The position numbers were made by a program, and so were the translations under genes. The notes under the pieces are model-generated. The model ran no database searches and was not told where the DNA came from. It worked only from the letters and a program-made list of their open reading frames with translations. 64,000 bases of DNA from a virus, in IMG/VR virus record IMGVR_UViG_3300027779_002128, positions 1-64,000 of that record; one strand, 5' to 3'. Below, piece after piece: positions 53 through 23,345 of this stretch (positions are counted from its first letter, which is position 1; each line of letters begins with the position of its first letter).

Positions 53-57
53 ACGCA

Positions 58-64
58 TATTTAT
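58..64 (-). promoter_or_regulatory. ATAAATA late-type promoter motif
   Basis: tatttat on + strand; same motif precedes several operon starts; resembles T4 late promoter TATAAATA. Confidence 0.45.
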
Positions 65-156
65 TAATCTCTGCACAACCTAGCCTTATTTTTTCGCACA
101 CCACTAACTGTATTTGTGCAAAGTGTCTTACGGCTTACTTTACACCGCTCTAGAAC

Positions 157-206
157 TTTTGTACACTATAAGCAACACATAAGCATTTTGTACACTATAA
201 GCAACA
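157..206. repeat. 21-bp perfect direct repeat x2 (ttttgtacactataagcaaca)
   Basis: Copies at 157-177 and 186-206, period 29. Confidence 0.9.
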
Positions 207-268
207 GTTATCATGATCATGCAATACTGTAGTTGCTTTACGCATAATGCATAACACTACTTTATCTC

Positions 269-320
269 CTAACACTTTAATGCACATATAAATGTATACA
301 TCTTACACTTTACTGCACAT
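269..320. repeat. 19-bp imperfect direct repeat x2
   Basis: ctaacactttaatgcacat (269-287) vs cttacactttactgcacat (302-320), 2 mismatches. Confidence 0.75.
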
Positions 321-508
321 GCGTAATAACTTGTACAGTTTACACACGTCAAAGGATTGTAGCACAGAAGGACTCACGTAGACATCGTTAGATGCGAATT
401 GTTATTAGGCTGTAGACTTACTGGCTTGTAGGTAGGAAAAAAATTTGCGTTTACCGGTCGACCCTTATCCTCCGCTTCTTTCTGTAGGGTTGTTATTACT
501 CGTATTAA

Positions 509-1009
509 CTAGCTAATTAACTCGCCCGTAATCTGCATTGTGTAGCGAGGGAGTATGCCTATGTTACTTGCCGCGTGGGGAACGTCTGCACTCCATAGTG
601 CGTAGTCGCCGGCTTTCCAATTGGTAACTGCTTTGCCGTTGAACTCTAAGTAGTGTCCTGGGTGCCAGTCTTCCATGAACACTAATGCTCTGTATGTGTT
701 GTCTCTTGTTACGCCGAATACACGTTCGTACGTTTCAAAGTGATCTGTGTGCGTAGGCATTATGTCTAGAGTATCCATTTTATAGAATACATAGCCTGTG
801 TTAGTTAAGCCTATCTTGTGTGCTACATAGTCTACCCAGTCTGGCATTGGATTACGACTGTCATACATGCCGCCGGAGAATGATGCATGATAGTAGCCTT
901 TGGCTTGCCATGTGTGTATCTCAGAGTCTTTAATAGGTTGCTTAGTGTAAGCGAAGTGAGTATGTTCGTCTGACCACACAGGAGTTATGTGTCCTTGCCT
1001 GGCTATCAT
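509..1009 (-). CDS. 2OG-Fe(II) dioxygenase / cupin-like protein
   Basis: HTD...H(AASN)...R(YTMQITG) facial-triad pattern; start likely ATG 1009 (ATGA overlap with upstream stop) rather than 1042. Confidence 0.7.
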   Translation of the reverse strand: MIARQGHITPVWSDEHTHFAYTKQPIKDSEIHTWQAKGYYHASFSGGMYDSRNPMPDWVDYVAHKIGLTNTGYVFYKMDTLDIMPTHTDHFETYERVFGVTRDNTYRALVFMEDWHPGHYLEFNGKAVTNWKAGDYALWSADVPHAASNIGILPRYTMQITGELIS

Positions 1010-1974
1010 GATGCTGACCTTATAGTGTCTAGTGTTACGCAATGGAAGCCACCACCTAGTGTGCGTTGATGTCTAGTAGGCAACATAGCACAATCAATGC
1101 CATGCTTCTCTAGTTCTATTCGCAGACTGTGTTGGTTTTCTTCTAATGCTACTAACGTAGGGCTTATGCTTAACATGTTCATGTTAATCCACACACTAGC
1201 ATTGTTGTAGTCGCCGTAGTAACCTATGTCTGTTGGCTCTGGGCACATTATGTAATCCCAATGTCTAAATGGTTCAGGCAGTTGGTTTACGTCTTTAATT
1301 CTTGTAGGGTTAAGCAACATCAAGCCTTCTCGTAGGAAAGCAACTGTGCTGTCTATGTGCATGTAACTGTACACACCTTCTAGTGGGTGTATGTTTAATC
1401 CTGTGTGTTTTTGTAACCAGTCAGCGCCTGCACGGTTTCCTGAGTTACTTACTAGGTACAGTATATCATCATTAGCACGAATACAGTTAGCCGCATCGAA
1501 ACTTGGTGCTACTTCTGTTAATGCTAGAGTGTCTGGGTCGCCTAAACACTTGGTATTGTATAAGTCATCAGCATAGTATCTAGGTGCTTCAGTAATAGTT
1601 GGGAAGTGATGTGCTAGTGGATGATAGTTACATGCTCTTGCTCTAATAGGCATAGGGGTTGCTATAGCATGTTCGCCATGCAAGAACACTATATCCCTAG
1701 GACAGTAATCATAATACTTAACAACTTGATCGGAATCAAACGGTCTAAGTACTTCTATACTCTCACCTTCAAGAAACTTAACAAATGTTTCTAAGTCTTC
1801 GTCTGCTTCTTGCGTTACAATGTCTGGGTAAGGACCTGTGTGTATTGTGTTAGCATCTTCTACGTCTGCATAGTTGACCAATCGCATACTTAAATCTAAG
1901 TCCGGTACTCTTGCACCTCTTGCCCTTCCTACTATAACCTGTCTAAGTGTGTCCCACTCATTTTTTGCGTACAT
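1006..1974 (-). CDS. Amidinotransferase, StrB1 (inosamine-phosphate amidinotransferase)-like
   Basis: NEWDTL, CPRD, FDAAN, SNSGN, HIDST and LGGGFHC motifs; Asp/His/Cys triad retained. Confidence 0.9.
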   Translation of the reverse strand: MYAKNEWDTLRQVIVGRARGARVPDLDLSMRLVNYADVEDANTIHTGPYPDIVTQEADEDLETFVKFLEGESIEVLRPFDSDQVVKYYDYCPRDIVFLHGEHAIATPMPIRARACNYHPLAHHFPTITEAPRYYADDLYNTKCLGDPDTLALTEVAPSFDAANCIRANDDILYLVSNSGNRAGADWLQKHTGLNIHPLEGVYSYMHIDSTVAFLREGLMLLNPTRIKDVNQLPEPFRHWDYIMCPEPTDIGYYGDYNNASVWINMNMLSISPTLVALEENQHSLRIELEKHGIDCAMLPTRHQRTLGGGFHCVTLDTIRSAS

Positions 1975-4257
1975 TTATTCCTCTAGCTTTACGGTAATCA
2001 TATCAGCATCAATGGCTTTGAAGTTTGCCGCTTGAGCTAAATGCTTGTTGTCTGCGTTAACACCGGCTGTAATAACATCTGGTACTGCTACGTTATGCGA
2101 ACCTCGTTCCCACTTGCCTTTGCCTTTGTAGTTGTGTTCAAAACTAAAGTCTATAGTTTTGTTTAAAAATGATTCTTCTTCTAGTAGCTCACCAAAGTCT
2201 GTTTGGCTTCTACCCTCAGTCTTGCTCCACTCAGGCTTTGCAAGTTTTCTAGCACGTTTGGCTGTGTTTGATTGCATACGTGAGTAGTCCTGTGCATAGA
2301 ACGGACCTTTACGTCCACCTTCACTCATAGGCTTCCTATCATCGAATGGATTGTCTACTTGGTTGTATTTGTATTTAAAGTTTGCTTTCCATGTACCGTC
2401 ATCAGCAATAACAAATTTATATGTACCGTGGAACTGATCTGCTGGACCAAACTGACTGCCGAATTCTTTGCTGTCTATGTCAGGGTTAAAGTCTACTGTA
2501 CATCTATAGCCGCCTCTGGTTAGCCACATCATTCTCAAGAAAGGCCATATCTCATTTACTAGACTGTCTGCGAATGGTGATATGTCTGGTTTAATTATGT
2601 TGTAGTCAAAGTCCTCATACTCAATCTCATGATATACATTTGGTTTATTAAGTCTAATAACATAGTGTTCTCTAGCTAGGTTGTGCCTAACAGGGTAACC
2701 AAACGGTACGTCAGTTGCGCCTACCATAAAGTCTATGAATGTATGGAACAGTTTAACCCTGTGCATAACATGTATGCCTGCAATAGTAAAGTCATTACTG
2801 ATCCAATGGTTCTGATACTTGTGATAACTAATGTTCCACTTATGAGGATTCTGTCCTACAATAGTTTCAGGACCTACTGCCATACCTACACCAGCACCAA
2901 TGTTGTTGATGTTCATGTTTCTGTTACGCCAAAGGAATGTCATTGTTCTTGCAAAGTCGTGATGTTGTTCTGTAGGAAAGCCTACGATCCAATTAGTCGC
3001 GGCATACACCCCATGCTTCTTACCTGACTTAAAGTTGTCTTCCATCTCTTTAATAGTTACGCCTTTAGCCATGTCGTCTAATACTTTCTGTGAACCTGAC
3101 TCGCAACCGTAGTTAAGCATAATACAACCACCGGCGGCTAAGTCCTTGAAGTAGTCATCGTCCATGCGTCCGTCACAACGAGCATACCCAGTCCATCTCA
3201 TCTTAATGTTCTTTTCTCTGAGTGCAATAGCAAATGCTCTAAGTTCATTTATGTTACCGTTAATCAAACTATCAATGAACCACATAATGTCTGCACCCTT
3301 CTCATAGTACAAGTATTCTGCTTCACGCAACACATCTATAGCAAGACGTTGTCTGTATTTCCAAAAGTGTGTTTCTTCGCAGAACGTACACTTAGCAGTA
3401 CAACCACGTGAGAACTCTGAGGTTACTCCGTTGGGTACTTTGTATTCGTTAAAGTCTAAACCTTCGTAGTCAGGCATAGGCATATCATTAATATTGATAC
3501 GCTCCATTTCTTCCTGTGTAATCTTATACATAGGACCTCGGTCTATACCATCTTCTTGATCTTGAAGTATAGCAAGTATAGCCGCTTCGCCTTCTCCTGT
3601 GCATATATAATCGTAGTAAGGTTGTATGTCAAACCAATCCTTCTGTACGTTAGATCCGCCTACAGCAATTTTAATGTGTGGCGCTCTCTTCTTAAGTTCT
3701 TTACACATCCACTTAGTTGGTTCTTCTGATATGTAGTATTGACTAAAGCCTACTACTTCGGGATTCTCTTCTATAATATGTTGCAAGCCTTCTTCGAGGA
3801 TAGGCTCTAGCAAAGGATGTATATCATTCATGTATGTTTCACCTAGCCAATGCCAACTGGCAGAAGGATCCCATAACCTAAAAGGAATTAGCTTTTCAGG
3901 TTGCCAAATGTTTTGATGTGCGTTGTAGGCTTTAACATTTAAGTCAAGTATGCTTGTTTCGTACCCAGCACTCTTACAAACGCCACTTAGTCTTGCTAAG
4001 TTAAACGGTGGAAACTCTGGTGCCCACTCAGGACACATAACTAATATTAATTTTGTTGTTCTTGTTTTGTAGTCTACATAAACTGACTTTGTGTTCTTCT
4101 GCTGTACCTTCTTAGAAAATGGTGAAATCATATCCATCATCTGTTGATGTCGTTGATCCTCCACACTCATCTCAGGCTTTTCGTACCTGTCTTCATCAGC
4201 CTTGTCTACTGCAATGTTAGTAAGATTAAAATCTACATGTTTTTTATGTTCGTCCAT
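1975..4257 (-). CDS. Cobalamin-binding (class B) radical SAM enzyme, putative methyltransferase
   Basis: PPFNLARL, VGG and GEGE B12-domain motifs; SRGCTAKCTFC (CxxxCxxC); GCESGSQKVL; IVGFPTE. Confidence 0.88.
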   Translation of the reverse strand: MDEHKKHVDFNLTNIAVDKADEDRYEKPEMSVEDQRHQQMMDMISPFSKKVQQKNTKSVYVDYKTRTTKLILVMCPEWAPEFPPFNLARLSGVCKSAGYETSILDLNVKAYNAHQNIWQPEKLIPFRLWDPSASWHWLGETYMNDIHPLLEPILEEGLQHIIEENPEVVGFSQYYISEEPTKWMCKELKKRAPHIKIAVGGSNVQKDWFDIQPYYDYICTGEGEAAILAILQDQEDGIDRGPMYKITQEEMERININDMPMPDYEGLDFNEYKVPNGVTSEFSRGCTAKCTFCEETHFWKYRQRLAIDVLREAEYLYYEKGADIMWFIDSLINGNINELRAFAIALREKNIKMRWTGYARCDGRMDDDYFKDLAAGGCIMLNYGCESGSQKVLDDMAKGVTIKEMEDNFKSGKKHGVYAATNWIVGFPTEQHHDFARTMTFLWRNRNMNINNIGAGVGMAVGPETIVGQNPHKWNISYHKYQNHWISNDFTIAGIHVMHRVKLFHTFIDFMVGATDVPFGYPVRHNLAREHYVIRLNKPNVYHEIEYEDFDYNIIKPDISPFADSLVNEIWPFLRMMWLTRGGYRCTVDFNPDIDSKEFGSQFGPADQFHGTYKFVIADDGTWKANFKYKYNQVDNPFDDRKPMSEGGRKGPFYAQDYSRMQSNTAKRARKLAKPEWSKTEGRSQTDFGELLEEESFLNKTIDFSFEHNYKGKGKWERGSHNVAVPDVITAGVNADNKHLAQAANFKAIDADMITVKLEE

Positions 4258-4268
4258 ATCCCTCTACT

Positions 4269-5888
4269 TTAAAACTCAGCTACTAAATCGTAGTCTGTGG
4301 TGTTTAATTTTTTCAGTGACAAGAAATGATTATAGTTATAATCTATAATCGGTTTCAGTTTCACTTGTAGTTCTAGCCACTCATCGTCTGTTAAATTTGT
4401 TAAACGTAATATTTCTTGCTCTATTGCTACATGCCTATCGTTGTCATCTTTTATAGTATCGTAATCTTCATTAAACAATCCTTCGAATGTTTTATATCCA
4501 ACTACTCTCAAATACTTTAATGTTCCAGGCAATGCCGCAACAATAAATGGATGTCTATGAGCAATAGGCTTATAAACTTTCTCACTTATAAACACACCAT
4601 CTGTATGTATACAGCAACACGGTCTAGTTCCTGTATCTATTAAATTATGATAAAAGTTTGTTTCGTTAACAACACTAAAATAACTGTTATCAAAGTAACC
4701 AGCATCTTCAACGTTAATATCTACAGGATTATCTCTTCCACTAGTTCTATTTAGCACTAAAGGCAACCTATTCCAGAGTTTATAGATATTTTCTATGTAC
4801 GGATCATCTCTAAATTCTTTATCAATATTCTTATTATTTTTTATGTCCCACGAGCTTCTTGTAGAAAGGACTATGTCACTGTTCTTTATATCAAAACTTA
4901 CATAACTTTTCTCGATTAGATCGTGCTCAAATAAGAATCCTACCATACGAGCTCGTTGCCATCTAGGCATTCTATTAAAGCAAAGTAACTTCTTTTCTCG
5001 TTTGCCTATCTTAAACTCTTTCCCTGCCCATACTGGGTGCTTAGTAAAGTCTAATGTTCTATTACCTTCGAATCCAGCCTCCATGGAAGTCTTAGTTACG
5101 TTCTCAAAACGCATACCACTAATAATTTTCATCTTAGGTTGTATACCCATCAGCTGACACATGTGATTATAACTTGCTGTGCCGTCCAATGAACTAGTTA
5201 ACATGAACCATGTATTGCTTGGCATGTAATCAAGTTGGTCAATAAACCTATGTGCTTTGTGAATACTCTGCGGTTGTAAGGCTTCATCAGCATTAGAGAA
5301 AATAACTTTGTCTTTTCCTCTACCTAATGCTTTTTCTATTGCACTTAGTACTTCCATGTGGTTCACTCTATCGATTGCGTGGTCTTCATTAGCACCTGCG
5401 TATACTGGATATATTCTATGCCAGTACTCTACTAGCTCAGGATGTACGCCTAGTATTTGTTCTTGGAACATTCGATCAGCATGTTTACTAAAAGGTTTCA
5501 TAAAGGTTGCTGTTGTACCTTGTCTGTCTTGTTGTTCCCACCTGTCGTTTTGCCAGAAGTAACATTCGTAGGCCCGACTTGCTTCACGAATCCAAGACGC
5601 TATATGAGGAGCTGGTAGCAACTTAGGTAATACAAACACAGTAGACCATGATTTGTATTGGCGCGGATTCTTAGCGTCTAATATTAATACAACGTTTGGA
5701 CCCATTAGATTATTCTGTATGCGTGAGTTGGCGTTACTGTAGTCTTCCATAGTATTAAATTTTGCACCTAGCTTATGTAATGCATCTTTGAGAGGAAGGC
5801 TATCGCTATTCCACTCGCCCTCTACACAAATACACTCGCCGTGCTGACTAATGAAGCCTGCTTGCTCTGTTGCTTTTATATATTCCAT
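4269..5888 (-). CDS. GT10-like putative glycosyltransferase
   Basis: FNRMPR..R; SVVNET...ISEKVYKPI..HPFI...GYKTF..NEDYD C-terminal signature shared with three paralogues. Confidence 0.55.
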   Translation of the reverse strand: MEYIKATEQAGFISQHGECICVEGEWNSDSLPLKDALHKLGAKFNTMEDYSNANSRIQNNLMGPNVVLILDAKNPRQYKSWSTVFVLPKLLPAPHIASWIREASRAYECYFWQNDRWEQQDRQGTTATFMKPFSKHADRMFQEQILGVHPELVEYWHRIYPVYAGANEDHAIDRVNHMEVLSAIEKALGRGKDKVIFSNADEALQPQSIHKAHRFIDQLDYMPSNTWFMLTSSLDGTASYNHMCQLMGIQPKMKIISGMRFENVTKTSMEAGFEGNRTLDFTKHPVWAGKEFKIGKREKKLLCFNRMPRWQRARMVGFLFEHDLIEKSYVSFDIKNSDIVLSTRSSWDIKNNKNIDKEFRDDPYIENIYKLWNRLPLVLNRTSGRDNPVDINVEDAGYFDNSYFSVVNETNFYHNLIDTGTRPCCCIHTDGVFISEKVYKPIAHRHPFIVAALPGTLKYLRVVGYKTFEGLFNEDYDTIKDDNDRHVAIEQEILRLTNLTDDEWLELQVKLKPIIDYNYNHFLSLKKLNTTDYDLVAEF

Positions 5889-6682
5889 TGGTCACCGTGC
5901 TCGTCCCAGGGCCACTGTGGGTCATCGAACACTTCTTGTAATGTTGTTTGTTTCATTATGTCGTCACTAAAGTCGGCGTATTGCTTACTAGCATCTCCTA
6001 ATGGAAAGCCAATGTGTACTAACCAATCTCTGTACACAGGCGCACTAGGGTGATAGTCTGCAAACTCACTGCCGTCATGTGTACTTTTATATGTGTAATG
6101 TACCGGCCACTTGCATTCGTTATAAGTCCATAAACACGGCTCTACAATGTCTAAGTCGTTGTACATATTCTGTATGCTATGTGTTTCTTCGTCTGAGAAG
6201 CCTGCATAGTATCCTTGACCGTTTAAACCTAATCCCATTAAGCCTACACTATCAAACTGTTCTTGCTTTAGTGATTGTGTTACTGTGTCTATAATTGCAC
6301 AATCACGCATAGTCATACCTTGCACATCTACATGTTCCTTAAAGTACTCTTCGCTGAACACATCGTCTCTACCAAATACATTACCTGGAGTACGCCATTG
6401 TCCTTTAATCCACTTGTCTTCTCTGTAGAAAGTACTCCAACAGATAACAACTAAGTCTTTGTTTGTTAAGGACATTTTTCTTTTTGCTTGACTAAGCATT
6501 GTTTGTATGTAACTGTTTCCTGCACCACACTTACCTAAGTTTGTAAACTCTGCATTAGGCATATCCTGTGCAAGTAAGTCGGCCCATGTTGCCCAGCGGT
6601 ACCTAGTAAAACTACAGCCAAGTGTTACTAATCTATCGTACTTAGACAAGTCTATATCAGCAATGTTTGTATTGTAGTACAT
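5876..6682 (-). CDS. SGNH/GDSL hydrolase-like protein (esterase or acyltransferase)
   Basis: GCSFT (block I), NLGKCGAGN (block II), DYHP (block V). Confidence 0.65.
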   Translation of the reverse strand: MYYNTNIADIDLSKYDRLVTLGCSFTRYRWATWADLLAQDMPNAEFTNLGKCGAGNSYIQTMLSQAKRKMSLTNKDLVVICWSTFYREDKWIKGQWRTPGNVFGRDDVFSEEYFKEHVDVQGMTMRDCAIIDTVTQSLKQEQFDSVGLMGLGLNGQGYYAGFSDEETHSIQNMYNDLDIVEPCLWTYNECKWPVHYTYKSTHDGSEFADYHPSAPVYRDWLVHIGFPLGDASKQYADFSDDIMKQTTLQEVFDDPQWPWDEHGDQWNI

Positions 6683-15634: not shown

Positions 15635-15646
15635 ATTATACCTAGT

Positions 15647-15670
15647 ATAGCAGGAGCGAACCCCTGCTAT
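15647..15670 (-). other. Intergenic RNA hairpin with UUCG tetraloop
   Basis: Minus-strand RNA AUAGCAGGGG-UUCG-CUCCUGCUAU (10-bp stem, one GU pair); no U-tract in the sense direction. Confidence 0.7.
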
Positions 15671-15676
15671 GTTTTA

Positions 15677-16987: not shown

Positions 16988-17027
16988 TTTTATCTCCTGT
17001 TGTTAGTAGTATTTTTAAACTACGCTG

Positions 17028-17819
17028 TTATTTATCAGGATTGAATTCAGGTTTTATATGTATTTGGTTAGCTTCATATAGAATATTCATGCTGTTCCAG
17101 AAGTCGTAAAATTGTTGAGGGGTAAGTATGCAAGGATTATCGCTGTCGTCGTCACCTAAATATTTTTCAATAGAGACAACACCTTTGTATGCTACAGCAA
17201 TACCTGGGAATATTCCAGCTTCACGACTCTCGTATGCTATTGCAACATCAGGGAAAGCCTGTTGTAAATCATCTATGTGTGCTAGTTCAAGCTCTTCTAT
17301 TTTAGGCGGAAACTCGCTACTAGCATAGTATACAGTTAGTTTATCTCTACCTGACTCTTTATAATATCGCATAACATCATGTACATGCTGATGACTATAT
17401 ATAACATGATCAAAGTTATCTTTAGCATAGCGTATCAAGTCTTCAATCGGTTCTATAGCATCATAATGAAGTTTAAGTATGTGTGCATTGCAATGCTCGT
17501 TGACCCAGGCCGCGGCCTGATCATCAGTAACACTCCATATAAGCGGTATGCCAATATCTTTGCAAAAGTCTGTTATTGCTATTGCGTTGCTAGGAGTAAG
17601 TTCTGAACGTTTGGCTACATCAATGTATGCCATTGTCCCCCACTTACTTGCAATAGGAACATACTTTTTATTTTTAGGAACAGTTAATGTGGGTGTACTT
17701 TTACTAAGAACGATTGCATCGGCATTGCCTGTTGCGGCTGATACTACTCGTTGTTTTAATACCTCAATGTCGTTCTCATGCCCTATTCCGATATTTGCAT
17801 AAAGTTTAATTGCCACCAC
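17028..17819 (-). CDS. Degenerate NeuB (N-acetylneuraminate synthase)-family TIM-barrel protein
   Basis: Follows the NeuB pattern (ANIGIGH~AEIGINH, ADAI, EL..FC..IGI, S.FP..ELEL, IEKY~IEKH) but catalytic residues are substituted; no C-terminal SAF/AFP domain. Confidence 0.7.
   Translation of the reverse strand: MVAIKLYANIGIGHENDIEVLKQRVVSAATGNADAIVLSKSTPTLTVPKNKKYVPIASKWGTMAYIDVAKRSELTPSNAIAITDFCKDIGIPLIWSVTDDQAAAWVNEHCNAHILKLHYDAIEPIEDLIRYAKDNFDHVIYSHQHVHDVMRYYKESGRDKLTVYYASSEFPPKIEELELAHIDDLQQAFPDVAIAYESREAGIFPGIAVAYKGVVSIEKYLGDDDSDNPCILTPQQFYDFWNSMNILYEANQIHIKPEFNPDK
17029..17035 (-). promoter_or_regulatory. ATAAATA late-type promoter motif upstream of the dehydrogenase-radical SAM block
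   Basis: tatttat at 17029-17035 overlapping the stop of the NeuB-like gene, about 40 nt before ATG 16987. Confidence 0.55.
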
Positions 17820-18819
17820 CTATCAAGCCCTTCTCAAGCAAGTCTTGAATTTGTTTTTCTCTAATCATTACACCCCAGCGTTTAGGGTTAACAAATGTCT
17901 TCTTAAAGAACTCACACATCTTAGGGTCCGGATTAAACAACATCATTTGATTTACGTTGTCGTTAAGCCTATCACCTAGTTCACATACTTCGGTGTATAA
18001 TGCGTCCTTATCCCATAATAGTTTACTATACTTACATTTTTGATCAGCATTAGTATTAAAGTTAATAGCAACCTCATCATAGAAGAATGATTTAAACCAG
18101 TCATAGTCTGATATTAAATTAACCTCCCAGTCGCTAGTTACAGCCATCTCACAGCCTAGTCTTGCTCCATAGATAGCCCATAAGCCATTTTCTATATCAC
18201 TACCAATGTTGCACCATGTTTGTAGTCTATTATAATTTCCATACCATATTTTTTCTTGGAACTCGTCTGCCCTAACTCTCTTCCCTTGATCCAAACTCAT
18301 TTTAACACCTTCCCTAAACCCTGCTCTAAATGCCTGGAAAGGACTTGCTGTTTGGTGTACTTCTGAGAATGTGTCGTTAAGTTGTATGTAGTTTAACTTC
18401 CAACAAAACTCCATGCCCTCACCGTCATCCGATGCTTCATGGGTGCTAATTGTTTTAGTGTATTCCGTAGGCCAACATTTAAGTCCGCCGTTACCATATA
18501 CTAATCCATTTAAAATGTTTTTACCGTTCCAACTAAATATGCTCTGGCTAATATCGTTACCGTCATGATCAGTGTCTGGGAAGTCTAATGCTTGTTCAAA
18601 GAAGTCTGGCATAACAATGTTGTCGCCGTCTACTGTGATAAATCGTTCTGTTTCTGCTTGATTGGCGCATTCTTTATGTGCGGCATCAAACCCTTTAACG
18701 CCGTGTACTCGTTTAGCCCAAGGTACTTTGTTTAATAAGTCAGCCCAATGCTCTTCGCAATTAGGTTCGTCATATGAGATATAAAATATATCTAATTCTG
18801 TGACATCTTGTTTTGGCAT
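17806..18819 (-). CDS. GT-A-like putative glycosyltransferase
   Basis: ISYDEPN, HGVKG..AAH, VDGDN (DxD), YGNGG, AFRAGFRE. Confidence 0.55.
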   Translation of the reverse strand: MPKQDVTELDIFYISYDEPNCEEHWADLLNKVPWAKRVHGVKGFDAAHKECANQAETERFITVDGDNIVMPDFFEQALDFPDTDHDGNDISQSIFSWNGKNILNGLVYGNGGLKCWPTEYTKTISTHEASDDGEGMEFCWKLNYIQLNDTFSEVHQTASPFQAFRAGFREGVKMSLDQGKRVRADEFQEKIWYGNYNRLQTWCNIGSDIENGLWAIYGARLGCEMAVTSDWEVNLISDYDWFKSFFYDEVAINFNTNADQKCKYSKLLWDKDALYTEVCELGDRLNDNVNQMMLFNPDPKMCEFFKKTFVNPKRWGVMIREKQIQDLLEKGLIGGGN

Positions 18820-20021
18820 TATGTATGTGTCTCTTTGCGTTTGTTGTAGAGCAAGTTGTTGGTACCGGTAGCAAATGCAAAGAAGTCATCAGCATAACTG
18901 TTAAAACCGGGAATAACATCTGTAATGTTATTTATTGTTTGTTGATGTATTTTCATAGCATGTTCTTGATTATATGTAATGCGTCCTTGTATATATTCTA
19001 AATCTAAGTTCTCTATGTTATTTAATACTTTTTGCGTATTATCGACGCAAGTTTTGAACTCACTTAACGTATTTCTATTATAGGGGTAAATATCTTTGTT
19101 GACACCCGCATGAGGCAACCATTCTGTAGTAGCGTCTGGCTGGTATAGTTTAAATCCTAACGTTGTTAGTTTATTTACAAATTGAGGATGTATGTACACA
19201 AACGGATACCCAAGCACAATAGGCTTAAACGTTTTCTCTGTTACATGAGCTAAACTGGATGCACTAGTCTCTGCAACTATTTCGACTGCAACATCGTTGT
19301 ATAGCTCTGGAGGAAGCATGTCAAAATCCTTACGTCCAGTCTCATTTAGCCACGGTCTATCTATAACTTTAGCAACATTGTTAACCATGCTTCTCATAGC
19401 ATCAAACGAATGGGGTTGATTATCGTAAACAGTTGTCCACGCTTCAAAAAGTTTTACCTCTGAATGCTCAGACCAATGTTCCATTTGTTCATATGTCATA
19501 CAAGCATATTTTAAACTATCGCTTATACTAGAGTGCAAAAAATAGTAAAGTGCAGGGAATCTTGATGGCTTCCACAGCTTACCAGGAAGAAATAATACTT
19601 TTGAATTAGACGGTTTCCATGTAAGATTTTCAATATTGTCTTTAGTGTATGTACTTATAGCTTGATGCAAAAACCACCATATGCTTAACACGTTATCATA
19701 TTGTTCGGCATGTTGAAACGTTGAATTAGTTAGAATTAAATAGTTACTAACAAACTTAGTGCTGTTAATATGTTTAGTTAAACAGTCGCACCAAAGTCGC
19801 ATACCATCGGAATCTGCATTTTCTTCGATATTTAATAACACTATTACTTGTAAATTTTCTGCTAGTGCAATATCAATAATTTTGTTTACTAGCACAGCCG
19901 CCGCGTGGCCTATGTCAACATCATCATTAGTGGCCGCCGTGGGTATATGGGCAACCGCACAGTCATCAAAAAACTGTATATTAAAAGGATAACCACCTTC
20001 TTGCCAAGAGACACGTCTCAT
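18819..20021 (-). CDS. GT10-like putative glycosyltransferase (divergent)
   Basis: EIVAET...VTEKTFKPIVLGYPF...LGFK. Confidence 0.5.
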   Translation of the reverse strand: MRRVSWQEGGYPFNIQFFDDCAVAHIPTAATNDDVDIGHAAAVLVNKIIDIALAENLQVIVLLNIEENADSDGMRLWCDCLTKHINSTKFVSNYLILTNSTFQHAEQYDNVLSIWWFLHQAISTYTKDNIENLTWKPSNSKVLFLPGKLWKPSRFPALYYFLHSSISDSLKYACMTYEQMEHWSEHSEVKLFEAWTTVYDNQPHSFDAMRSMVNNVAKVIDRPWLNETGRKDFDMLPPELYNDVAVEIVAETSASSLAHVTEKTFKPIVLGYPFVYIHPQFVNKLTTLGFKLYQPDATTEWLPHAGVNKDIYPYNRNTLSEFKTCVDNTQKVLNNIENLDLEYIQGRITYNQEHAMKIHQQTINNITDVIPGFNSYADDFFAFATGTNNLLYNKRKETHT

Positions 20022-20747
20022 TTAACTACGTTGGTACTTGTCGAATAATTTTACTGTGTACACACTACAATGTCGTAAGTCACCTAAAAGTTTTCGTGTA
20101 ACTTTCTTTTCTGTAATTAGTTCTGCAAGACTTATAATTTCATAATGAAACATTGTGTGTGGATCGTGCTCGGCTGTTAAGAAGAACTTTAATAATCGTT
20201 GCCCTTTAATAGTTGCACTAATTGGGTACACATCTTTGTACACTTCTTTTGATTTGTTACTTAAACTAACAACCAATTCGTCTACATTTACAGAACATTT
20301 AATATCAAATGATGTACTCTTGCCGTAATCAATTTCGTTAAGGAAATCTTTTTCTGCTTCTGTGTATATTGTGTTGATGCTTTTTAGTTCAATGCTGTAT
20401 AAGTTATCTACTTTAGGATCAATATTTACTCTGTACTTATGAGACTCCGTTTGATTACTTGTTAAGATAGTTAACTGCTCTTGAGAAAAGTTAAACGTTT
20501 GCCAGCCTTCTTGTATGTGTGTATCTGTGTTTTGTGTTAGACAAACTATCTCACCACTTTTATCAAAGTATAATTTCCACTCTTTGTCTTTTTGAGCTTG
20601 TATTAGATTTTCAGCACCACCTGCCTTTTCTTTTTCAGCAAGGAAACGTTTCCTTCTTTCTAGTGCGGCATTAGATACAACGTTATCTTGTTGTGCTTCT
20701 TCTACCACAGCCTTCTTAGTAGTCTTTGTTTTCTTTTTAGTAGGCAT
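20022..20747 (-). CDS. Hypothetical protein with Lys-rich N-terminus
   Basis: 241-aa ORF coupled to both neighbours; no recognisable motif. Confidence 0.75.
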   Translation of the reverse strand: MPTKKKTKTTKKAVVEEAQQDNVVSNAALERRKRFLAEKEKAGGAENLIQAQKDKEWKLYFDKSGEIVCLTQNTDTHIQEGWQTFNFSQEQLTILTSNQTESHKYRVNIDPKVDNLYSIELKSINTIYTEAEKDFLNEIDYGKSTSFDIKCSVNVDELVVSLSNKSKEVYKDVYPISATIKGQRLLKFFLTAEHDPHTMFHYEIISLAELITEKKVTRKLLGDLRHCSVYTVKLFDKYQRS

Positions 20748-21600
20748 AAGAATCCTCCATTTGTTTAATCATTTTGTCTGTTAGCCACTCGTCTTCTACA
20801 TAATGGAATGGTAGTTGTTGTTGGAAGTTTCCTACCTTAAAATTCTTACAATCTTTATAGTATGTAGGCAAACTATCGGTCCATGTTTCGCTAAGTGCGG
20901 CACCTTTTACTTCTTGTATATGACTTTTCATATGTATAAATGTAGGTACTGCTTCAATATTTTCTCTACAACATTCTTGTTCAATTCCCAGTAGTTGCAT
21001 TGCTAAAGCAAATGCTACGTCTCCACTGAGCCAATCAGGCTTGCCTTTTGGCATATACCTGTGAAAGAATCTTTGCCAATGCTGGAATATAATTTCAGTC
21101 ATTGCGAATAGCTCACTTGCTAGATCACTTTGTTTAAAGTAAAAGAATGCTGTGTAGACATTAGGTAAGCCATTTGCAACAAAGTATTTTCTGTAGTAAT
21201 CACTGTTAACAACCTCGCCTCGGTATGTTCTAACTTTAGTTGTTACCCAAACATCACGTTGACCCATAATATCCCACCAATGACTTACATCTGTAGGGAA
21301 TAACATATCAGTATCTAATACTACAGTCTCATCATACGGAGTCATATAGTAATACTTCCACTTGTTATTAATTTTCCATTCGGCATTTTCTGCGTCGTCT
21401 GACCAAGGTATGTCAACAATATTATCAAATACTTTTGTATGCTTAGGCTTAATTAGTTCTCTAGTCGCTGGGTCTACACACACCGTTAGATTGCTTACAA
21501 CCGTCTGTGTTGCTTTTAAATTCAATGCTAGTGCATACGCCTGCTTTAAGTAATCAGTCGTGCTGTTGTTTTGTGCTATTACTATATAACCCTTACTCAT
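20737..21600 (-). CDS. GT-A fold putative glycosyltransferase (GT8/GT71-like)
   Basis: GY..IAQN..DY..AY.LA; TPYDETVVLDTD (DxD); paralogue of 21939-22895. Confidence 0.65.
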   Translation of the reverse strand: MSKGYIVIAQNNSTTDYLKQAYALALNLKATQTVVSNLTVCVDPATRELIKPKHTKVFDNIVDIPWSDDAENAEWKINNKWKYYYMTPYDETVVLDTDMLFPTDVSHWWDIMGQRDVWVTTKVRTYRGEVVNSDYYRKYFVANGLPNVYTAFFYFKQSDLASELFAMTEIIFQHWQRFFHRYMPKGKPDWLSGDVAFALAMQLLGIEQECCRENIEAVPTFIHMKSHIQEVKGAALSETWTDSLPTYYKDCKNFKVGNFQQQLPFHYVEDEWLTDKMIKQMEDSYAY

Positions 21601-21787
21601 TTGCTATTCTCTCTAATACTTTATTCTTTTCATCGTCAGTCATTGTATACCAGTCTCGCATCTCGGTAGCAGTTCTAAAACAACCGATACAATACTCTCC
21701 GCTCTCATCAAAAGTACAAACTTTGATACACGGACTTATTACTGTTGAGGGAGGCCTAGCCTTTCCCCTTCTCAAATCTTCTTCCAA
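21593..21787 (-). CDS. DUF1289-family small Cys/Fe-S-type protein
   Basis: SPCIKVC...CIGCFRT..E..DW; start may be TTG 21775 (TTGA overlap). Confidence 0.85.
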   Translation of the reverse strand: MEEDLRRGKARPPSTVISPCIKVCTFDESGEYCIGCFRTATEMRDWYTMTDDEKNKVLERIANE

Positions 21788-21942
21788 TCCTCTTTAAACA
21801 AACAGAACCTACTATGTCCGCTAGATGTTTTATAAACAAATTGTGCCGCTAACAGTTGTATTACTTTGCCTTCAAACTTTCCATTAAGACGACATGTGTG
21901 TTCTATCTTATCGCCTAGCTCAGGTTTCTTACGGCTACTCAT
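21772..21942 (-). CDS. Small 56-aa protein missed by the ORF track (MSSRKKPELGDKIEHTCRLNGKFEGKV...EDWKKI)
   Basis: ATG overlaps upstream stop (ATGA, 21939-21942); 171-nt frame fills the gap exactly. Confidence 0.7.
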   Translation of the reverse strand: MSSRKKPELGDKIEHTCRLNGKFEGKVIQLLAAQFVYKTSSGHSRFCLFKEDWKKI

Positions 21943-22895
21943 GTTCCTACAGTTTCTATTTCTTGTGCCTTAGCAATTTTCTTTGTAGGTGCTTTAGGCT
22001 GTGTAATAAACTTAATTAGTTCATCACCGATTCTATTTATAGCCCACTTATTCATAACATGTAGATCAACTCCCTTCCATCTAGTAAGAATAAAGTCGCC
22101 CGGACTCCTGACTTTTTCTAAATATAATAATAGATCGTTGCTCGCCAATGCTCTATCAACATCATCAAGATCAAATGTTTTATATAATTTGTGTGGTAAC
22201 TGTGCTACGCCTTTGTCTTGGTAGCCTCCAATCATGTGGGCGGCAATACTAAAACTATAATCGTTTCTATACATGCTTCCTTGCCACTTGTATAAGTCTC
22301 TGTAAAAATCTTTGTTGTTCTTAACATGCTTTACAAAATTAAAAAATGTTTCTGCATACGTTGACTTTTTAAAATAAACTACTGTAGCCCAATACATTGT
22401 TATACCAGTTGGACCGAGTCTATCTAGTTCCTCAAAGTTTCTTTCTGATAGTACGTCCTGAAACTCCCAATTCATCATTAGTTCATTGTTATGTCCCCAA
22501 CATTGATTGAGAGCATCACTCTGTATTAAGTAATCTACATCTAGTAAAATTGTTTCATCATATGGAGAGATATCATATGCATCGCACCTGTTAACATTGT
22601 AAAACTGTAACTGTTTTGATGTATGACTAGTGTCTTTATACATGCGTATGTTACTTTGCTTGAACTCCATGTCTTTATCAACTACAACTATATTTTTAAA
22701 TGCTTGTTGCATTTTTCTAATACCAATAGTTTTTTTGCCATGCTCGAGACTATGAGGATCAGTTACTACAGTAATTTGTGTTCGATCTAATCCCATGTGT
22801 TCTTGTATCAATAGACTGTTAACGTATGCTAACTTAATGTAATCTATTTCAGTATTGTTATGGGCGAACATTATCACCCCACGACTATTCGCCAC
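21939..22895 (-). CDS. GT-A fold putative glycosyltransferase (GT8/GT71-like)
   Basis: GVIMFAHN..DY..LA; SPYDETILLDVD (DxD); RNDYSFSIA. Confidence 0.65.
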   Translation of the reverse strand: MANSRGVIMFAHNNTEIDYIKLAYVNSLLIQEHMGLDRTQITVVTDPHSLEHGKKTIGIRKMQQAFKNIVVVDKDMEFKQSNIRMYKDTSHTSKQLQFYNVNRCDAYDISPYDETILLDVDYLIQSDALNQCWGHNNELMMNWEFQDVLSERNFEELDRLGPTGITMYWATVVYFKKSTYAETFFNFVKHVKNNKDFYRDLYKWQGSMYRNDYSFSIAAHMIGGYQDKGVAQLPHKLYKTFDLDDVDRALASNDLLLYLEKVRSPGDFILTRWKGVDLHVMNKWAINRIGDELIKFITQPKAPTKKIAKAQEIETVGT

Positions 22896-23256
22896 TGTCG
22901 CTTCCTGGATTATTTAAGTCTAGTACAGACGATACATTTCTTGCTTTTCTAATTTTTTCATATTCTATGTAATAGTCATTAGTAACTTCAAAGTATCTGC
23001 TCATAATCTCTGCATAGAAGTTTGACAAATCGATTGCAATAGGATGATTATATACATCTAATAGAATAGCTTCAGTGTGTTTATCGTCAAGCAATACTTT
23101 AACAAAAGTAATTAGTTCACGGTCAATAGTAAACGTACCACCGTTAATACTGTAACTAAGCAAACTTTCTGTCTTTGCTTTCAATACATCTTTCTGATTG
23201 TTAAGTGTTTGCCTATAATTAGAAAATTCTAATGCTGTTTGTAGTTTAGCCGCCAT
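22885..23256 (-). CDS. Hypothetical protein, first gene of the enzyme operon
   Basis: 123-aa ORF with GAG RBS, directly after an exact TATAAATA. Confidence 0.8.
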   Translation of the reverse strand: MAAKLQTALEFSNYRQTLNNQKDVLKAKTESLLSYSINGGTFTIDRELITFVKVLLDDKHTEAILLDVYNHPIAIDLSNFYAEIMSRYFEVTNDYYIEYEKIRKARNVSSVLDLNNPGSDSGE

Positions 23257-23271
23257 ATTTTAACTCTCGTG

Positions 23272-23279
23272 TATTTATA
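23272..23279 (-). promoter_or_regulatory. Exact T4-type late promoter TATAAATA heading the enzyme cluster
   Basis: tatttata on + strand, just downstream of the terminator and about 15 nt before ATG 23256. Confidence 0.7.
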
Positions 23280-23293
23280 CTGATATTTAAGCC

Positions 23294-23329
23294 AAAAAAA
23301 AGCCAGTCAATGAATAAACTGGCTTTTTT
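23294..23329 (-). terminator. Rho-independent terminator (possibly bidirectional)
   Basis: aaaaaaaagccagt-N10-actggctttttt inverted repeat after the 321-aa gene. Confidence 0.85.
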
Positions 23330-23345
23330 ATAGTTGTGTATTAAA

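What the first reader, a model, noticed from the sequence alone, without database searches (positions are those of the whole stretch)
509..23279. Phage late-expressed ~23-kb glycan synthesis and tailoring cluster next to the tail genes
Seen: about 22 co-oriented genes, mostly coupled by TAATG/ATGA overlaps, starting at an exact TATAAATA just after the terminator of the structural operon. They encode 7 candidate glycosyltransferases, a nucleotide-sugar dehydrogenase, 6 radical SAM enzymes, an SGNH protein, an amidinotransferase and a 2OG oxygenase. Known: this enzyme set parallels aminoglycoside and unusual-sugar tailoring (BtrN-type Twitch dehydrogenase, GenK/GenD1-type B12 methylase, StrB1, KanJ-type dioxygenase). 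Inference: the late promoter and adjacency to Ser/Thr-rich fibres point to a pathway building a heavily modified (oxidised, C-methylated, guanidinylated, acylated) glycan on the virion. Alternatives are host-surface remodelling, DNA hypermodification or a small molecule.
Basis: partly seen in the sequence, partly recalled or inferred. Interest (0 to 1): 0.92.

Follow-up and report, generated by a model that had tools for sequence, protein, structure and literature searches.

The report
Phage radical-SAM sugar-tailoring operon behind fibres
A marine giant phage carries, right after its tail-fibre genes, one operon of 21 soluble proteins (seven sugar transferases, six radical-SAM enzymes, a streptomycin-type amidinotransferase and others) that most likely builds a heavily edited sugar chain; its chemistry and its target are still unknown.

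Summary
On the minus strand, 23256 to 509, lie 21 co-oriented ORFs, mostly overlapping. They start after a strong terminator hairpin and an exact TATAAATA.

Tools support:
- seven glycosyltransferase-fold proteins: four GT-B-like, one GT-A, two GT8/glycogenin-like;
- six radical SAM enzymes: four tandem N-terminal-Twitch enzymes of NCBIfam NF033640, one short rSAM, one B12-rSAM;
- a nucleotide-sugar dehydrogenase;
- a StrB1-like amidinotransferase (E 1e-100 to PDB 1bwd).

The 2OG-oxygenase and SGNH calls rest on motifs only.

The order fibre, g22, g21, GT8, GT8, x, GT-A, rSAM recurs in dozens of viral contigs. It also occurs in the cultured Ralstonia phage RsoM2USA.

No cluster protein has a membrane segment. 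A complete 337-kb relative has no thymidylate-synthase-family gene. This genome avoids GCWGC completely. These points argue against DNA glycosylation and against a self-contained surface-polysaccharide pathway. They do not show virion glycosylation.

The aminoglycoside parallel holds only at superfamily level.

The island type was noted coarsely as the 'host recognition cluster' of pelagimyophages (PMC7029224). This scan has noted it before on other DNA: 131 notes in at least 118 genomes. I class it as a new variant of a known kind.

The parts
23292..23333 (-). Intrinsic terminator hairpin plus U-run, ending the fibre transcription unit
   Evidence: -19.1 kcal/mol, z -6.2, 0 of 200 shuffles as good
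23272..23279 (-). TATAAATA, a T4-late-type promoter motif 16 nt before the g21 start
   Evidence: The ATAAATA core also precedes fibre genes g22 and g23. 9 of 19 copies lie in the 3.4% of the contig that is intergenic
22885..23256 (-). g21: 123-aa protein of no known family, first gene of the operon, in 45 of the 82 sequences compared (81 fetched viral loci plus this contig)
   Evidence: No Pfam or PHROG hit
21939..22895 (-). g20: GT8/glycogenin-like GT-A glycosyltransferase with a DxD motif, paralogue of g18
   Evidence: hhalign 99.8%, E 9e-29 to the g18 family
21593..21787 (-). g19: small Cys-rich DUF1289 protein, lineage-specific
   Evidence: PF06945, E 3e-18
20737..21600 (-). g18: GT8/glycogenin-like GT-A glycosyltransferase
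   Evidence: family profile against glycogenin, E 1.4e-4, residues 3-105 including DxD
20022..20747 (-). g17: Lys-rich 241-aa protein of no known family. It holds the conserved slot between the GT8 pair and g15. Its C-terminus is weakly like the slot proteins of relatives
18819..20021 (-). g16: GT-B-like glycosyltransferase, distant paralogue of g07, an insertion specific to this lineage
   Evidence: hhalign 97.8%, E 6.8e-13, 278 columns. Absent from the 93%-identical relative L001
17806..18819 (-). g15: GT-A-fold nucleotide-sugar transferase (invariant DGD) with a helical C-terminal domain. The most conserved core enzyme, in 58 of the 82 sequences compared
   Evidence: Z 8-10 to B4GALNT1, SunS, WrtF, PBCV-1 A64R; nucleotidyltransferases are tied at Z 8.4-9.1
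17028..17819 (-). g14: NeuB-family TIM barrel without a SAF domain, with both canonical metal-binding His replaced
   Evidence: Only in this lineage
15677..16987 (-). g13: UDP-glucose/GDP-mannose dehydrogenase family enzyme
   Evidence: PF00984 66 bits, PF03721 53 bits; TIGR03026 154.6 bits, below the 189.8 cut-off
14192..15634 (-). g12: N-terminal-Twitch radical SAM enzyme, type 2 (always next to g15 in relatives)
   Evidence: NF033640, 296 bits, cut-off 170
12909..14192 (-). g11: N-terminal-Twitch radical SAM enzyme
   Evidence: NF033640, 361 bits
11672..12916 (-). g10: N-terminal-Twitch radical SAM enzyme
   Evidence: NF033640, 366 bits
10389..11672 (-). g09: N-terminal-Twitch radical SAM enzyme
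   Evidence: NF033640, 375 bits
9406..10407 (-). g08: 333-aa radical SAM enzyme without the N-terminal Twitch domain
8196..9425 (-). g07: GT-B-fold glycosyltransferase
   Evidence: pLDDT 78.6; the top-listed VIA matches, Z up to 10.5, are nearly all GT-B glycosyltransferases
6682..8196 (-). g06: GT-B-like protein that shares the C-terminal (donor-binding) domain with g07
5876..6682 (-). g05: SGNH/GDSL-like esterase or acyltransferase candidate (invariant Ser in GCSFT, G-N, D-x-H)
   Evidence: Pfam hits below cut-off
4269..5888 (-). g04: GT-B-like glycosyltransferase, paralogue of g07 with an N-terminal extension
1975..4257 (-). g03: B12-binding (class B) radical SAM enzyme, a probable methyltransferase
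1006..1974 (-). g02: StrB1-like amidinotransferase with invariant His/Asp and a C-terminal His-Cys
   Evidence: E 1.4e-100 to 1bwd, full length; 59% identical to S-SCSM2R ORF309
509..1009 (-). g01: small cupin/2OG-Fe(II)-oxygenase-like protein (invariant HxD...H). It probably starts at the ATG at 1009, which gives an ATGA overlap with g02
23346..24311 (-). g22: Ser/Thr/Gly-rich virus-only protein that always precedes the operon. It is fused to a fibre N-terminus in phage RsoM2USA. Candidate acceptor
24354..26891 (-). g23: tail-fibre protein

Best explanation
This is one transcription unit of a marine jumbo myovirus. It probably runs from a T4-late-type promoter. It encodes only soluble proteins, and together they make and edit a glycan in the cytoplasm of the infected cell.

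Proposed steps:
1. A nucleotide-sugar dehydrogenase (g13) supplies a uronic-acid donor. Host pools supply the other donors.
2. Seven glycosyltransferases assemble the chain: two GT8-like (g18, g20), one GT-A (g15) and four GT-B-like (g04, g06, g07, g16).
3. Five radical SAM enzymes of, or near, the uncharacterised N-terminal-Twitch family (g08-g12) and a B12-radical SAM methylase (g03) edit unactivated C-H positions of the sugars.
4. An amidinotransferase (g02), a small Fe/2OG-type oxygenase (g01) and an SGNH-like enzyme (g05) add guanidino, hydroxyl and acyl changes.

The most likely acceptor is a virion protein of the fibre module encoded just upstream (g22 or g23), so that progeny carry a decorated fibre.

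Shown: the enzyme families, the operon structure, the promoter motif, and the conserved linkage to the fibre genes.
Inferred: every reaction, the order of the steps and the acceptor.
For: - Enzyme families.
- Relatives add an NDP-sugar epimerase/dehydratase, a DegT-like protein and a carbamoyltransferase, all sugar-tailoring types.
- None of the 21 proteins has a transmembrane segment. The pathway is therefore cytoplasmic and has no initiating transferase, flippase or polymerase of its own.
- The order fibre, g22, g21, GT8, GT8, x, g15, N-Twitch rSAM is kept in dozens of viral contigs whose proteins are only about 30-45% identical. It is also kept in the cultured phage RsoM2USA, where the g22-like domain is fused to a fibre N-terminus.
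- The operon starts at a terminator plus TATAAATA. The ATAAATA core is enriched in intergenic DNA and also precedes fibre genes. 19 of 19 relatives of one group have [CT]TAAATA[CA] before the g21 homologue.
- Identical fragments of both the operon and the fibre genes occur in four marine RNA libraries. This is weak, because DNA carry-over is not excluded.
Against: - No direct evidence for any glycoprotein.
- Structural matches do not separate protein-, lipid-, sugar- or DNA-directed transferases. T4 alpha- and beta-glucosyltransferases tie with the best GT-B matches.
- g15's fold is shared with nucleotidyltransferases.
- In one group of relatives the operon has a sigma-70-like TTGACA-N17-TATAAT promoter, which does not look late.
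- In cyanophage S-SCSM2R the g01/g02 sub-module is not next to fibres.
- The published reading of such islands favours host O-chain change (PMC7029224).
Confidence: 0.45

Rival explanations
1. Host-envelope remodelling. The soluble transferases add edited sugars to a host lipid-linked intermediate (LPS core or an undecaprenyl-linked repeat unit) at the inner face of the membrane. Host machinery exports the product. The receptor that the neighbouring fibres recognise is thereby masked, which prevents superinfection or the loss of progeny on cell debris.
For: - GT8 enzymes are typically LPS-core transferases without membrane segments (established knowledge).
- The published reading of the pelagimyophage 'host recognition cluster', with GT8 genes, UDP-glucose dehydrogenase and radical SAM cassettes, is O-chain modification (PMC7029224).
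- Linkage with receptor-binding genes would also be expected if the enzymes modify the receptor.
- Some relatives have sigma-70-like promoters.
Against: - No membrane protein, initiating transferase, flippase, ligase or Gtr-type component in 21 genes.
- The late-type promoter shared with fibre genes in this phage leaves little time for export before lysis.
Confidence: 0.25
2. Protein maturation by the radical SAM enzymes. The Twitch-type radical SAM enzymes and the B12-rSAM act directly on a fibre-module protein (cross-links, epimerisation, C-methylation, as in RiPP maturases). The oxygenase and amidinotransferase act on its side chains. The transferases then glycosylate it.
For: - SPASM/Twitch enzymes are mostly peptide maturases.
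- The best NCBIfam hit of g03 is a RiPP C-methyltransferase model (93 bits, cut-off 282).
- A neighbour cluster of g01 carries Asp/Asn beta-hydroxylase on 19% of its members.
- g15 matches the peptide S-glycosyltransferase SunS.
- A conserved 33-residue peptide accompanies such clusters in 14 relatives.
Against: - That peptide is absent from this genome.
- g21 shows no precursor-like variable core and no conserved Cys, Ser or Thr site.
- Relatives carry many dedicated sugar-tailoring enzymes.
- The N-Twitch family has no solved or studied relative either way.
Confidence: 0.12
3. A free, aminoglycoside-like or other pseudo-oligosaccharide small molecule, made in the infected cell to act on the host or on competitors.
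For: - StrB1-like amidinotransferase.
- Radical SAM, B12-rSAM and carbamoyltransferase enzymes are of types also found in aminoglycoside pathways.
- The authors of the S-SCSM2R paper called its homologues 'antibiotic synthesis genes'.
Against: - No cyclitol synthase (2-deoxy-scyllo-inosose or inositol-phosphate synthase), aminotransferase, kinase, phosphatase, exporter or self-resistance gene in the operon.
- Seven transferases are many for a small molecule.
- The conserved linkage to fibre genes is left unexplained.
Confidence: 0.08
4. DNA hypermodification. The transferases and tailoring enzymes decorate hydroxymethylated bases of the phage genome with an edited glycan.
For: - The g07 model matches T4 beta- and alpha-glucosyltransferases as well as any other GT-B enzyme (Z 10.5 and 9.8).
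- Radical SAM enzymes occur in thymidine hypermodification pathways (PMC5889632, listed).
Against: - A complete 337-kb relative with the module has no thymidylate-synthase-family gene, so no dCMP or dUMP hydroxymethylase of the known kind.
- This contig has 0 GCWGC sites where about 92 are expected. That is site avoidance of the kind expected if the DNA is exposed to restriction.
- The operon sits in the late structural block, not among replication genes.
Confidence: 0.05

Closest known systems
Host recognition cluster (HRC) of pelagimyophages and cyanomyophages (Zaragoza-Solas et al. 2020, PMC7029224)
   Same: A large variable island beside the tail-fibre genes and a giant structural protein. 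It holds GT8-type glycosyltransferases, UDP-glucose 6-dehydrogenase and radical SAM cassettes in marine myoviruses.
   Different: That work lists annotations only and favours host O-chain change. It does not recognise the N-terminal-Twitch family, the conserved core order or the amidinotransferase. The backbone here is nearest to PA5oct, SCTP-2, Atu_ph07 and RsoM2USA-type jumbo phages, not to T4-like pelagimyophages.
NCBIfam NF033640, N_Twi_rSAM (twitch domain-containing radical SAM protein)
   Same: g09-g12 score 296-375 bits against a cut-off of 170, over the full length. They have the CxxxCxxC motif and four invariant N-terminal Cys.
   Different: The family has a name but no known reaction. 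The family profile found no solved structure better than E 0.03.
StrB1, inosamine-phosphate amidinotransferase of streptomycin biosynthesis (PDB 1bwd)
   Same: Full-length profile match at E 1.4e-100, far better than to glycine amidinotransferase or SxtG (about 1e-58 to 1e-62). The His, Asp and C-terminal His-Cys columns are invariant.
   Different: There is no cyclitol pathway around it, so the acceptor is unknown. It is paired with a small cupin oxygenase, as in cyanophage S-SCSM2R ORF308/309.
Virus-encoded virion glycosylation (chlorovirus PBCV-1 A64R and partners; Mimivirus fibril glycan clusters; mycobacteriophage capsid/tail glycosylation, Freeman et al. 2023, cited)
   Same: Cytoplasmic, virus-encoded soluble transferases and sugar-tailoring enzymes encoded near structural genes. 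g15 matches PBCV-1 A64R.
   Different: None of those systems is reported to use arrays of radical SAM enzymes, a B12-rSAM or an amidinotransferase (my own knowledge, not tested here). Glycosylation of the virion is not shown here.
Aminoglycoside tailoring enzymes (BtrN, GenK/GenD1, KanJ)
   Same: The same broad superfamilies: Twitch radical SAM, class B radical SAM and Fe/2OG oxygenase.
   Different: The Twitch domain is N-terminal and the family is distinct. g03 reaches no equivalog cut-off. g01 looks Asp/Asn-hydroxylase-like rather than PhyH/KanJ-like. There are no cyclitol genes.

Membership tests
NF033640 N_Twi_rSAM | Full-length score above the curated cut-off (170 bits) | tested here: met
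   g09 374.8, g10 365.6, g11 361.3, g12 296.2 bits. g08 scores only 39.8 bits and is not a member
NF033640 N_Twi_rSAM | CxxxCxxC radical SAM motif and a Cys-rich Twitch domain placed before it | tested here: met
   Invariant C131, C135, C138 and N-terminal C15, C34, C76, C79 in alignment A1. Pfam SPASM at residues 15-86, ahead of Radical_SAM
NF033640 N_Twi_rSAM | Two [4Fe-4S] clusters and reductive SAM cleavage | not testable with these tools
   Needs purified protein
Amidinotransferase (StrB1/AGAT branch of the guanidino-group-modifying enzymes) | Full-length homology to solved members | tested here: met
   Family profile against 1bwd E 1.4e-100, SxtG 3e-62, AGAT 1e-58
Amidinotransferase (StrB1/AGAT branch of the guanidino-group-modifying enzymes) | Catalytic Cys near the C-terminus, with His and Asp | tested here: met
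   Invariant H206, D208, H311, C312 in A6. I did not check residue by residue how these map onto the StrB1 numbering
GT8 (glycogenin/LgtC-type retaining GT-A) | Sequence membership (Pfam Glyco_transf_8 or equivalent) | tested here: inconclusive
   No Pfam hit even at E 10. The family profile reaches glycogenin at E 1.4e-4 over the first 105 residues only
GT8 (glycogenin/LgtC-type retaining GT-A) | DxD metal/donor motif | tested here: met
   Invariant D98 in LDxDM (A4) and D119/D121 (A5)
GT-B fold glycosyltransferases | Two Rossmann-like domains matching solved GT-B enzymes | tested here: met
   g07 model pLDDT 78.6. Foldseek probability 1.0 to trehalose-6-phosphate synthases, GtfA and SdgB. 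VIA Z 8-10.5, and nearly all listed rows are GT-B. g04, g06 and g16 are tied to g07 by sequence or profile. No CAZy family can be assigned
GT-A fold glycosyltransferases (g15) | Nucleotide-diphospho-sugar transferase fold with DxD | tested here: met
   Model pLDDT 81.7. Z 8-10 to B4GALNT1, SunS, WrtF, SpsA and A64R. Invariant D64-G-D66. Sugar nucleotidyltransferases of the same fold tie at Z 8.4-9.1, so transferase versus nucleotidyltransferase is not fully settled
Class B (cobalamin-binding) radical SAM methyltransferases | B12-binding domain followed by a radical SAM domain | tested here: met
   PF02310 47.4 bits (cut-off 32.1) and PF04055 59.2 bits
Class B (cobalamin-binding) radical SAM methyltransferases | Membership of a characterised subfamily (GenK/GenD1, PhpK, RiPP C-methylases and others) | tested here: not met
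   Best hits are 93 bits against a 282 cut-off (TIGR03975) and 90 against 600 (PhpK)
UDP-glucose/GDP-mannose dehydrogenase family | N-terminal NAD and central domains above the Pfam cut-offs | tested here: met
   PF03721 53.3 bits, PF00984 66.3 bits
UDP-glucose/GDP-mannose dehydrogenase family | Equivalog-level assignment, or the C-terminal UDP-binding domain | tested here: inconclusive
   TIGR03026 154.6 bits, below the 189.8 cut-off. No C-terminal domain hit listed
NeuB (nonulosonic acid synthases) | Two metal-binding His and the AE-G-NH / K-Q motifs | tested here: not met
   The alignment to SpsE (1vli) shows ANIGIGH for AEAGINH, YESRE for FSDHS and EKY for EKH. The family-level Pfam hit is real (58 bits), so g14 is a divergent, probably non-canonical member
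Fe(II)/2-oxoglutarate oxygenases (cupin) | HxD/E...H facial triad | tested here: met
   Invariant H98, D100, H156 in A8
Fe(II)/2-oxoglutarate oxygenases (cupin) | Significant match to a family model or structure | tested here: inconclusive
   No Pfam or NCBIfam hit. AtsK only at E 0.25. An Atlas neighbour cluster carries Asp_Arg_Hydrox on 19% of members. The S-SCSM2R homologue is annotated 2OG-Fe(II) oxygenase by its depositors
SGNH/GDSL hydrolases | Blocks I, III and V (Ser, Asn, Asp-x-x-His) | tested here: inconclusive
   Invariant S24 (GCSFT), G55-N56 and D209-x-H211 in A7. Pfam Lipase_GDSL_2 reaches only E 0.007-0.013 in 2 of 15 members. No PDB match
Aminoglycoside (2-deoxystreptamine or streptidine) biosynthetic cluster | Cyclitol-forming enzyme plus aminotransferases | tested here: not met
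   No such family among the 21 ORFs with Pfam or NCBIfam

The most novel reading that the evidence does not exclude
The N-terminal-Twitch radical SAM enzymes are a new class of radical sugar editors. They act on a glycan that the phage itself builds on its fibre or adhesin protein. Their variable copy number (2-8 per locus) would then generate lineage-specific, hypermodified glycan coats on the host-recognition apparatus. This would be a virus-encoded radical glycan-diversification system, widespread in aquatic jumbo phages and shared with predatory Bdellovibrionota.
Probability: 0.3. Interest if true: 0.85.

Novelty: new variant of a known kind. Interest (0 to 1): 0.62.

Why it matters
If the reading holds, phages run cytoplasmic glycan pathways as rich in chemistry as antibiotic clusters (radical C-H editing, C-methylation, guanidinylation) and apply them to their own host-recognition parts. 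That would open an uncharacterised radical SAM family, found in more than 516 viral matches and a few predatory bacteria, to enzymology. It would also add a layer to how marine giant phages recognise hosts or escape defences.

The core module exists in a cultured phage (RsoM2USA), and a sub-module exists in a cultured cyanophage (S-SCSM2R). The question is therefore directly testable.

Tried and rejected
- Megablast of the cluster against cultured phages: no match.
- Single-sequence and profile searches of g04, g07, g15 and g05 against PDB sequences gave nothing useful. Fold prediction was needed.
- PHROGs gave only unnamed families.
- Complex prediction of g22 with g21 gave no verdict: score 0.00, controls not run. 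It is evidence neither way.
- A 33-residue peptide (ending ...RKKLKELRKRDPFIYK), named as a lead by earlier notes, is in 14 related loci but not in this genome. It cannot be part of this cluster's mechanism.
- Nonulosonic-acid synthesis by g14 is rejected, because both metal ligands are lost.
- Copy numbers of N-Twitch enzymes and GT-B enzymes per locus correlate negatively (Spearman -0.42). I do not interpret this. Loci are fixed 10-kb flanks, so more of one gene leaves less room for the other.
- Bacterial contexts of N-Twitch genes showed similar small tailoring cassettes but no identifiable acceptor. The taxa were Bdellovibrionota, Haliscomenobacter, Bacteroidales and Bryobacterales. The cassettes held carbamoyltransferase, SDR, methyltransferase and MBOAT genes.
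- RNA-library contigs cover parts of the operon. They cannot show strand, level or timing, and DNA carry-over is possible.
- g22 has no similar known fold in the ESM Atlas. All its near neighbours there are viral proteins.

Full report
**Setting.** The window is the first 64 kb of a single 75.6-kb viral contig. Nearly all genes lie on the minus strand. Reading that strand, the order is:
- a gp5-like lysozyme protein;
- gp25 baseplate wedge (PF04965);
- a 1,403-aa baseplate wedge protein;
- a 789-aa and a 7,187-aa structural protein;
- four Ser/Thr/Gly-rich fibre proteins, one with the endosialidase-chaperone domain;
- the finding.

The 1,403-aa wedge protein is about 38% identical to those of the jumbo phages PA5oct, SCTP-2, Atu_ph07 and Phosso. 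The same layout (baseplate, giant protein, fibres, module) is seen in Ralstonia jumbo phage RsoM2USA. The DNA recurs in seawater and marine metagenomes: 14 runs from 11 studies hold 60% or more of its sampled words, and two of these runs may be the source of this DNA.

**The observation.** From 23256 down to 509 there are 21 co-oriented ORFs. I number them g21 down to g01.
- Junctions: of 20, five are TAATG, two abut, nine overlap by 4-20 nt, and four are gaps of 11-151 nt.
- Operon start: after the stop of the upstream gene g22 there is a 13-bp-stem hairpin with a U-run (-19.1 kcal/mol, z -6.2). TATAAATA follows, 16 nt before the g21 ATG.
- The exact octamer occurs only twice in 64 kb, so an octamer count alone proves little.
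- The seven-base core ATAAATA is informative. Of 19 copies in the contig, 17 are on the coding strand. Nine lie in the 3.4% of the contig that is intergenic, including upstream of fibre genes g22 and g23 and of two other structural-block genes.
- In relatives the g21 homologue is always preceded by a promoter-like element. It is [CT]TAAATA[CA] in 19 of 19 loci of one group and ATAAATA in another. In a third group it is a clear TTGACA-N17-TATAAT.

So the operon start is conserved. A late-type promoter is likely in this phage, but late timing is not universal and is not measured.

**Radical SAM enzymes.** Pfam and NCBIfam identify six.
- g09-g12 are full-length members of NF033640, the 'twitch domain-containing radical SAM protein' family, at 296-375 bits against a cut-off of 170.
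- In these four, a SPASM/Twitch-type Cys domain lies before the CxxxCxxC core. The seven Cys are invariant.
- g08 is a shorter radical SAM enzyme.
- g03 has a B12-binding domain plus a radical SAM domain but reaches no characterised subfamily.
- A profile of the N-Twitch family finds no solved structure better than E 0.03. The family is catalogued but unstudied.

**Other enzymes found by family models.**
- g13 is a UDP-glucose/GDP-mannose dehydrogenase family enzyme.
- g14 is a NeuB-family barrel. Both metal-binding histidines and the N-terminal motifs are replaced, so nonulosonic-acid synthesis is not supported.

**The other twelve ORFs.** They had no Pfam hit, so I collected homologues from related viral contigs and worked with family profiles.
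- g18 reaches glycogenin (GT8) at E 1.4e-4 across the DxD region. g20 is its paralogue (hhalign 99.8%).
- An AlphaFold model of g07 (pLDDT 78.6) matches GT-B glycosyltransferases almost exclusively: Foldseek probability 1.0 and VIA Z up to 10.5. g04 and g06 share its C-terminal domain.
- g16 is a distant member of the same family (hhalign 97.8%, E 6.8e-13).
- The g15 model (pLDDT 81.7) has a GT-A domain with an invariant DGD, followed by a helical domain. It matches B4GALNT1, SunS, WrtF, SpsA and the PBCV-1 capsid glycosyltransferase. Nucleotidyltransferases of the same fold are tied.
- g02 is the clearest result. Its family profile matches the streptomycin enzyme StrB1 (1bwd) over the full length at E 1.4e-100, against about 1e-58 to 1e-62 for glycine amidinotransferase and SxtG. 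His, Asp and the C-terminal His-Cys are invariant.
- g01 has an invariant HxD...H, and its likely start gives an ATGA overlap with g02. Support beyond the motif is weak: AtsK at E 0.25, and an Atlas neighbour cluster with Asp/Asn beta-hydroxylase on 19% of its members.
- g05 has SGNH-like blocks but only sub-threshold Pfam hits.
- g17, g19 (DUF1289) and g21 remain unexplained.

**Conservation.**
- Patterns from the N-Twitch alignment matched more than 599 stretches in the viral collection, and 516 were confirmed as relatives.
- In the 80 loci kept, the order fibre (g23-like), g22, g21, GT8, GT8, a small slot protein, g15, g12-type rSAM, one to several g10-type rSAMs, g08, GT-B genes recurs again and again. 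Protein identities are only 30-45%.
- Of the 82 sequences compared (81 fetched viral loci plus this contig), GT-B genes are in 69, g15 in 58, the GT8 pair in 51, g21 in 45 and g22 in 43.
- Relatives add an NDP-sugar epimerase/dehydratase, a carbamoyltransferase and a short DegT-like protein next to the amidinotransferase. This strengthens the sugar reading.
- g14 and g16 are lineage-specific additions, and g17 in this form is too.
- Among cultured phages, RsoM2USA ORF355-348 has the minimal core. It has a g22-like domain fused to a fibre N-terminus, then g21, g20, g18, a slot protein, g15, one g12-type rSAM and a second g15-like gene. All are annotated hypothetical.
- Cyanophage S-SCSM2R ORF305-310 has a DegT-like gene, an rSAM, a glycosyltransferase, g01, g02 (59% identical) and a GT2. 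Its authors called these 'antibiotic synthesis genes' of unclear role.
- In genomes of cellular organisms the family is rare: 39 loci among about 185,000 species. It is mostly in Bdellovibrionota and some Bacteroidota, in small tailoring cassettes. Two 'Rickettsiales' MAG contigs are evidently phage.

**What it does.** The composition points to synthesis and heavy editing of a glycan.

*The target is open.* Facts that bear on it:
1. None of the 21 proteins has a transmembrane segment. The pathway is therefore cytoplasmic and lacks the membrane steps of a self-contained surface-polysaccharide route.
2. It is tied to the fibre/g22 genes across deep divergence, and g22 is a fibre domain in RsoM2USA.
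3. It shares a late-type promoter motif with the fibre genes in this phage.
4. A complete 337-kb relative with the module has no thymidylate-synthase-family gene.
5. This contig has no GCWGC site where about 92 are expected. That is the kind of restriction-site avoidance expected if the DNA is not blanket-modified.

*My weighting.* I rate decoration of a virion (fibre-module) protein as most likely, at about 0.45. Host-envelope remodelling through host lipid carriers comes next, at about 0.25. The remaining readings are direct radical maturation of a fibre protein, a free small molecule, and DNA hypermodification.

*Limits.* Fold matches cannot separate these, since T4 DNA glucosyltransferases tie with the other GT-B hits. 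Fragments identical to the operon and to the fibre genes occur in four marine RNA libraries. That is compatible with expression but gives no timing.

**Comparison with what is known.** The island type was described coarsely as the 'host recognition cluster' of pelagimyophages and cyanomyophages, with GT8 genes, UDP-glucose dehydrogenase and radical SAM cassettes. It was read there as host O-chain modification. A marine T4-like genome with 12 radical SAM genes was also noted in passing. I found no paper that defines the conserved core, the N-Twitch family's role or the amidinotransferase pairing. This scan has met the module often: 131 notes in at least 118 genomes, with follow-ups reaching similar verdicts. 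This window is therefore a further, well-preserved example. Its special features are four GT-B paralogues, the StrB1-like/cupin pair, a degenerate NeuB homologue, and the absence of the 33-residue peptide.

Noticed in passing
whole contig (window 1-64000 and beyond): GCAGC/GCTGC (GCWGC) occurs 0 times where about 92 copies are expected from a maximal-order Markov model. It is by far the most avoided short word. This suggests selection against a host restriction enzyme of that specificity.
   Followed up: partly
window 33138-54701 (-) and 54701-57070 (-): A single 7,187-aa ORF preceded by a 789-aa ORF that hits a PHROG of giant virion structural proteins (phrog_10938). It sits between the baseplate and fibre genes, as does the 2,541-aa ORF361 of RsoM2USA.
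   Followed up: no
L056:14792-14893, L057:7658-7759 and 12 further related loci: A near-invariant 33-residue ORF ending ...RKKLKELRKRDPFIYK, usually just before a carbamoyltransferase gene in related clusters. It is absent from this genome.
   Followed up: partly
window 15635-15676 (-): A 10-bp GC-rich hairpin (-14.8 kcal/mol, z -3.9) without a U-run, in the 42-nt gap between the dehydrogenase gene g13 and the first N-Twitch gene g12. It may be a processing or attenuation site inside the operon.
   Followed up: partly
window 1-508: Non-coding stretch after the last gene up to the contig end. It holds a 21-nt direct repeat (TGTTGCTTATAGTGTACAAAA, twice, about 27 nt apart). The cluster's far boundary may lie beyond the contig.
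   Followed up: no
L124:8136-9305 (RsoM2USA ORF355): One 390-aa protein joins the N-terminal motif of the window's fibres g23/g25 to a g22-like C-terminal part. This shows that g22 is a fibre component.
   Followed up: partly
L095 and L102 (contigs of a 'Rickettsiales bacterium MED657' MAG): Both carry the phage order g23, g21, g20, g18, x, g15, rSAM, GT-B, dehydrogenase. They look like phage contigs binned into a bacterial MAG.
   Followed up: no
window 17028-17819 (-): A NeuB-family gene kept intact and translationally coupled, although both metal-binding His and the N-terminal motifs are replaced. It is either a pseudoenzyme or has a different activity.
   Followed up: partly
L051, L045, L040, L078, L044, L026, L024 (upstream of g21 homologues): These relatives have near-consensus TTGACA-N17-TATAAT promoters before the operon instead of the late-type motif. 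The timing of the module may therefore differ between phage lineages.
   Followed up: partly
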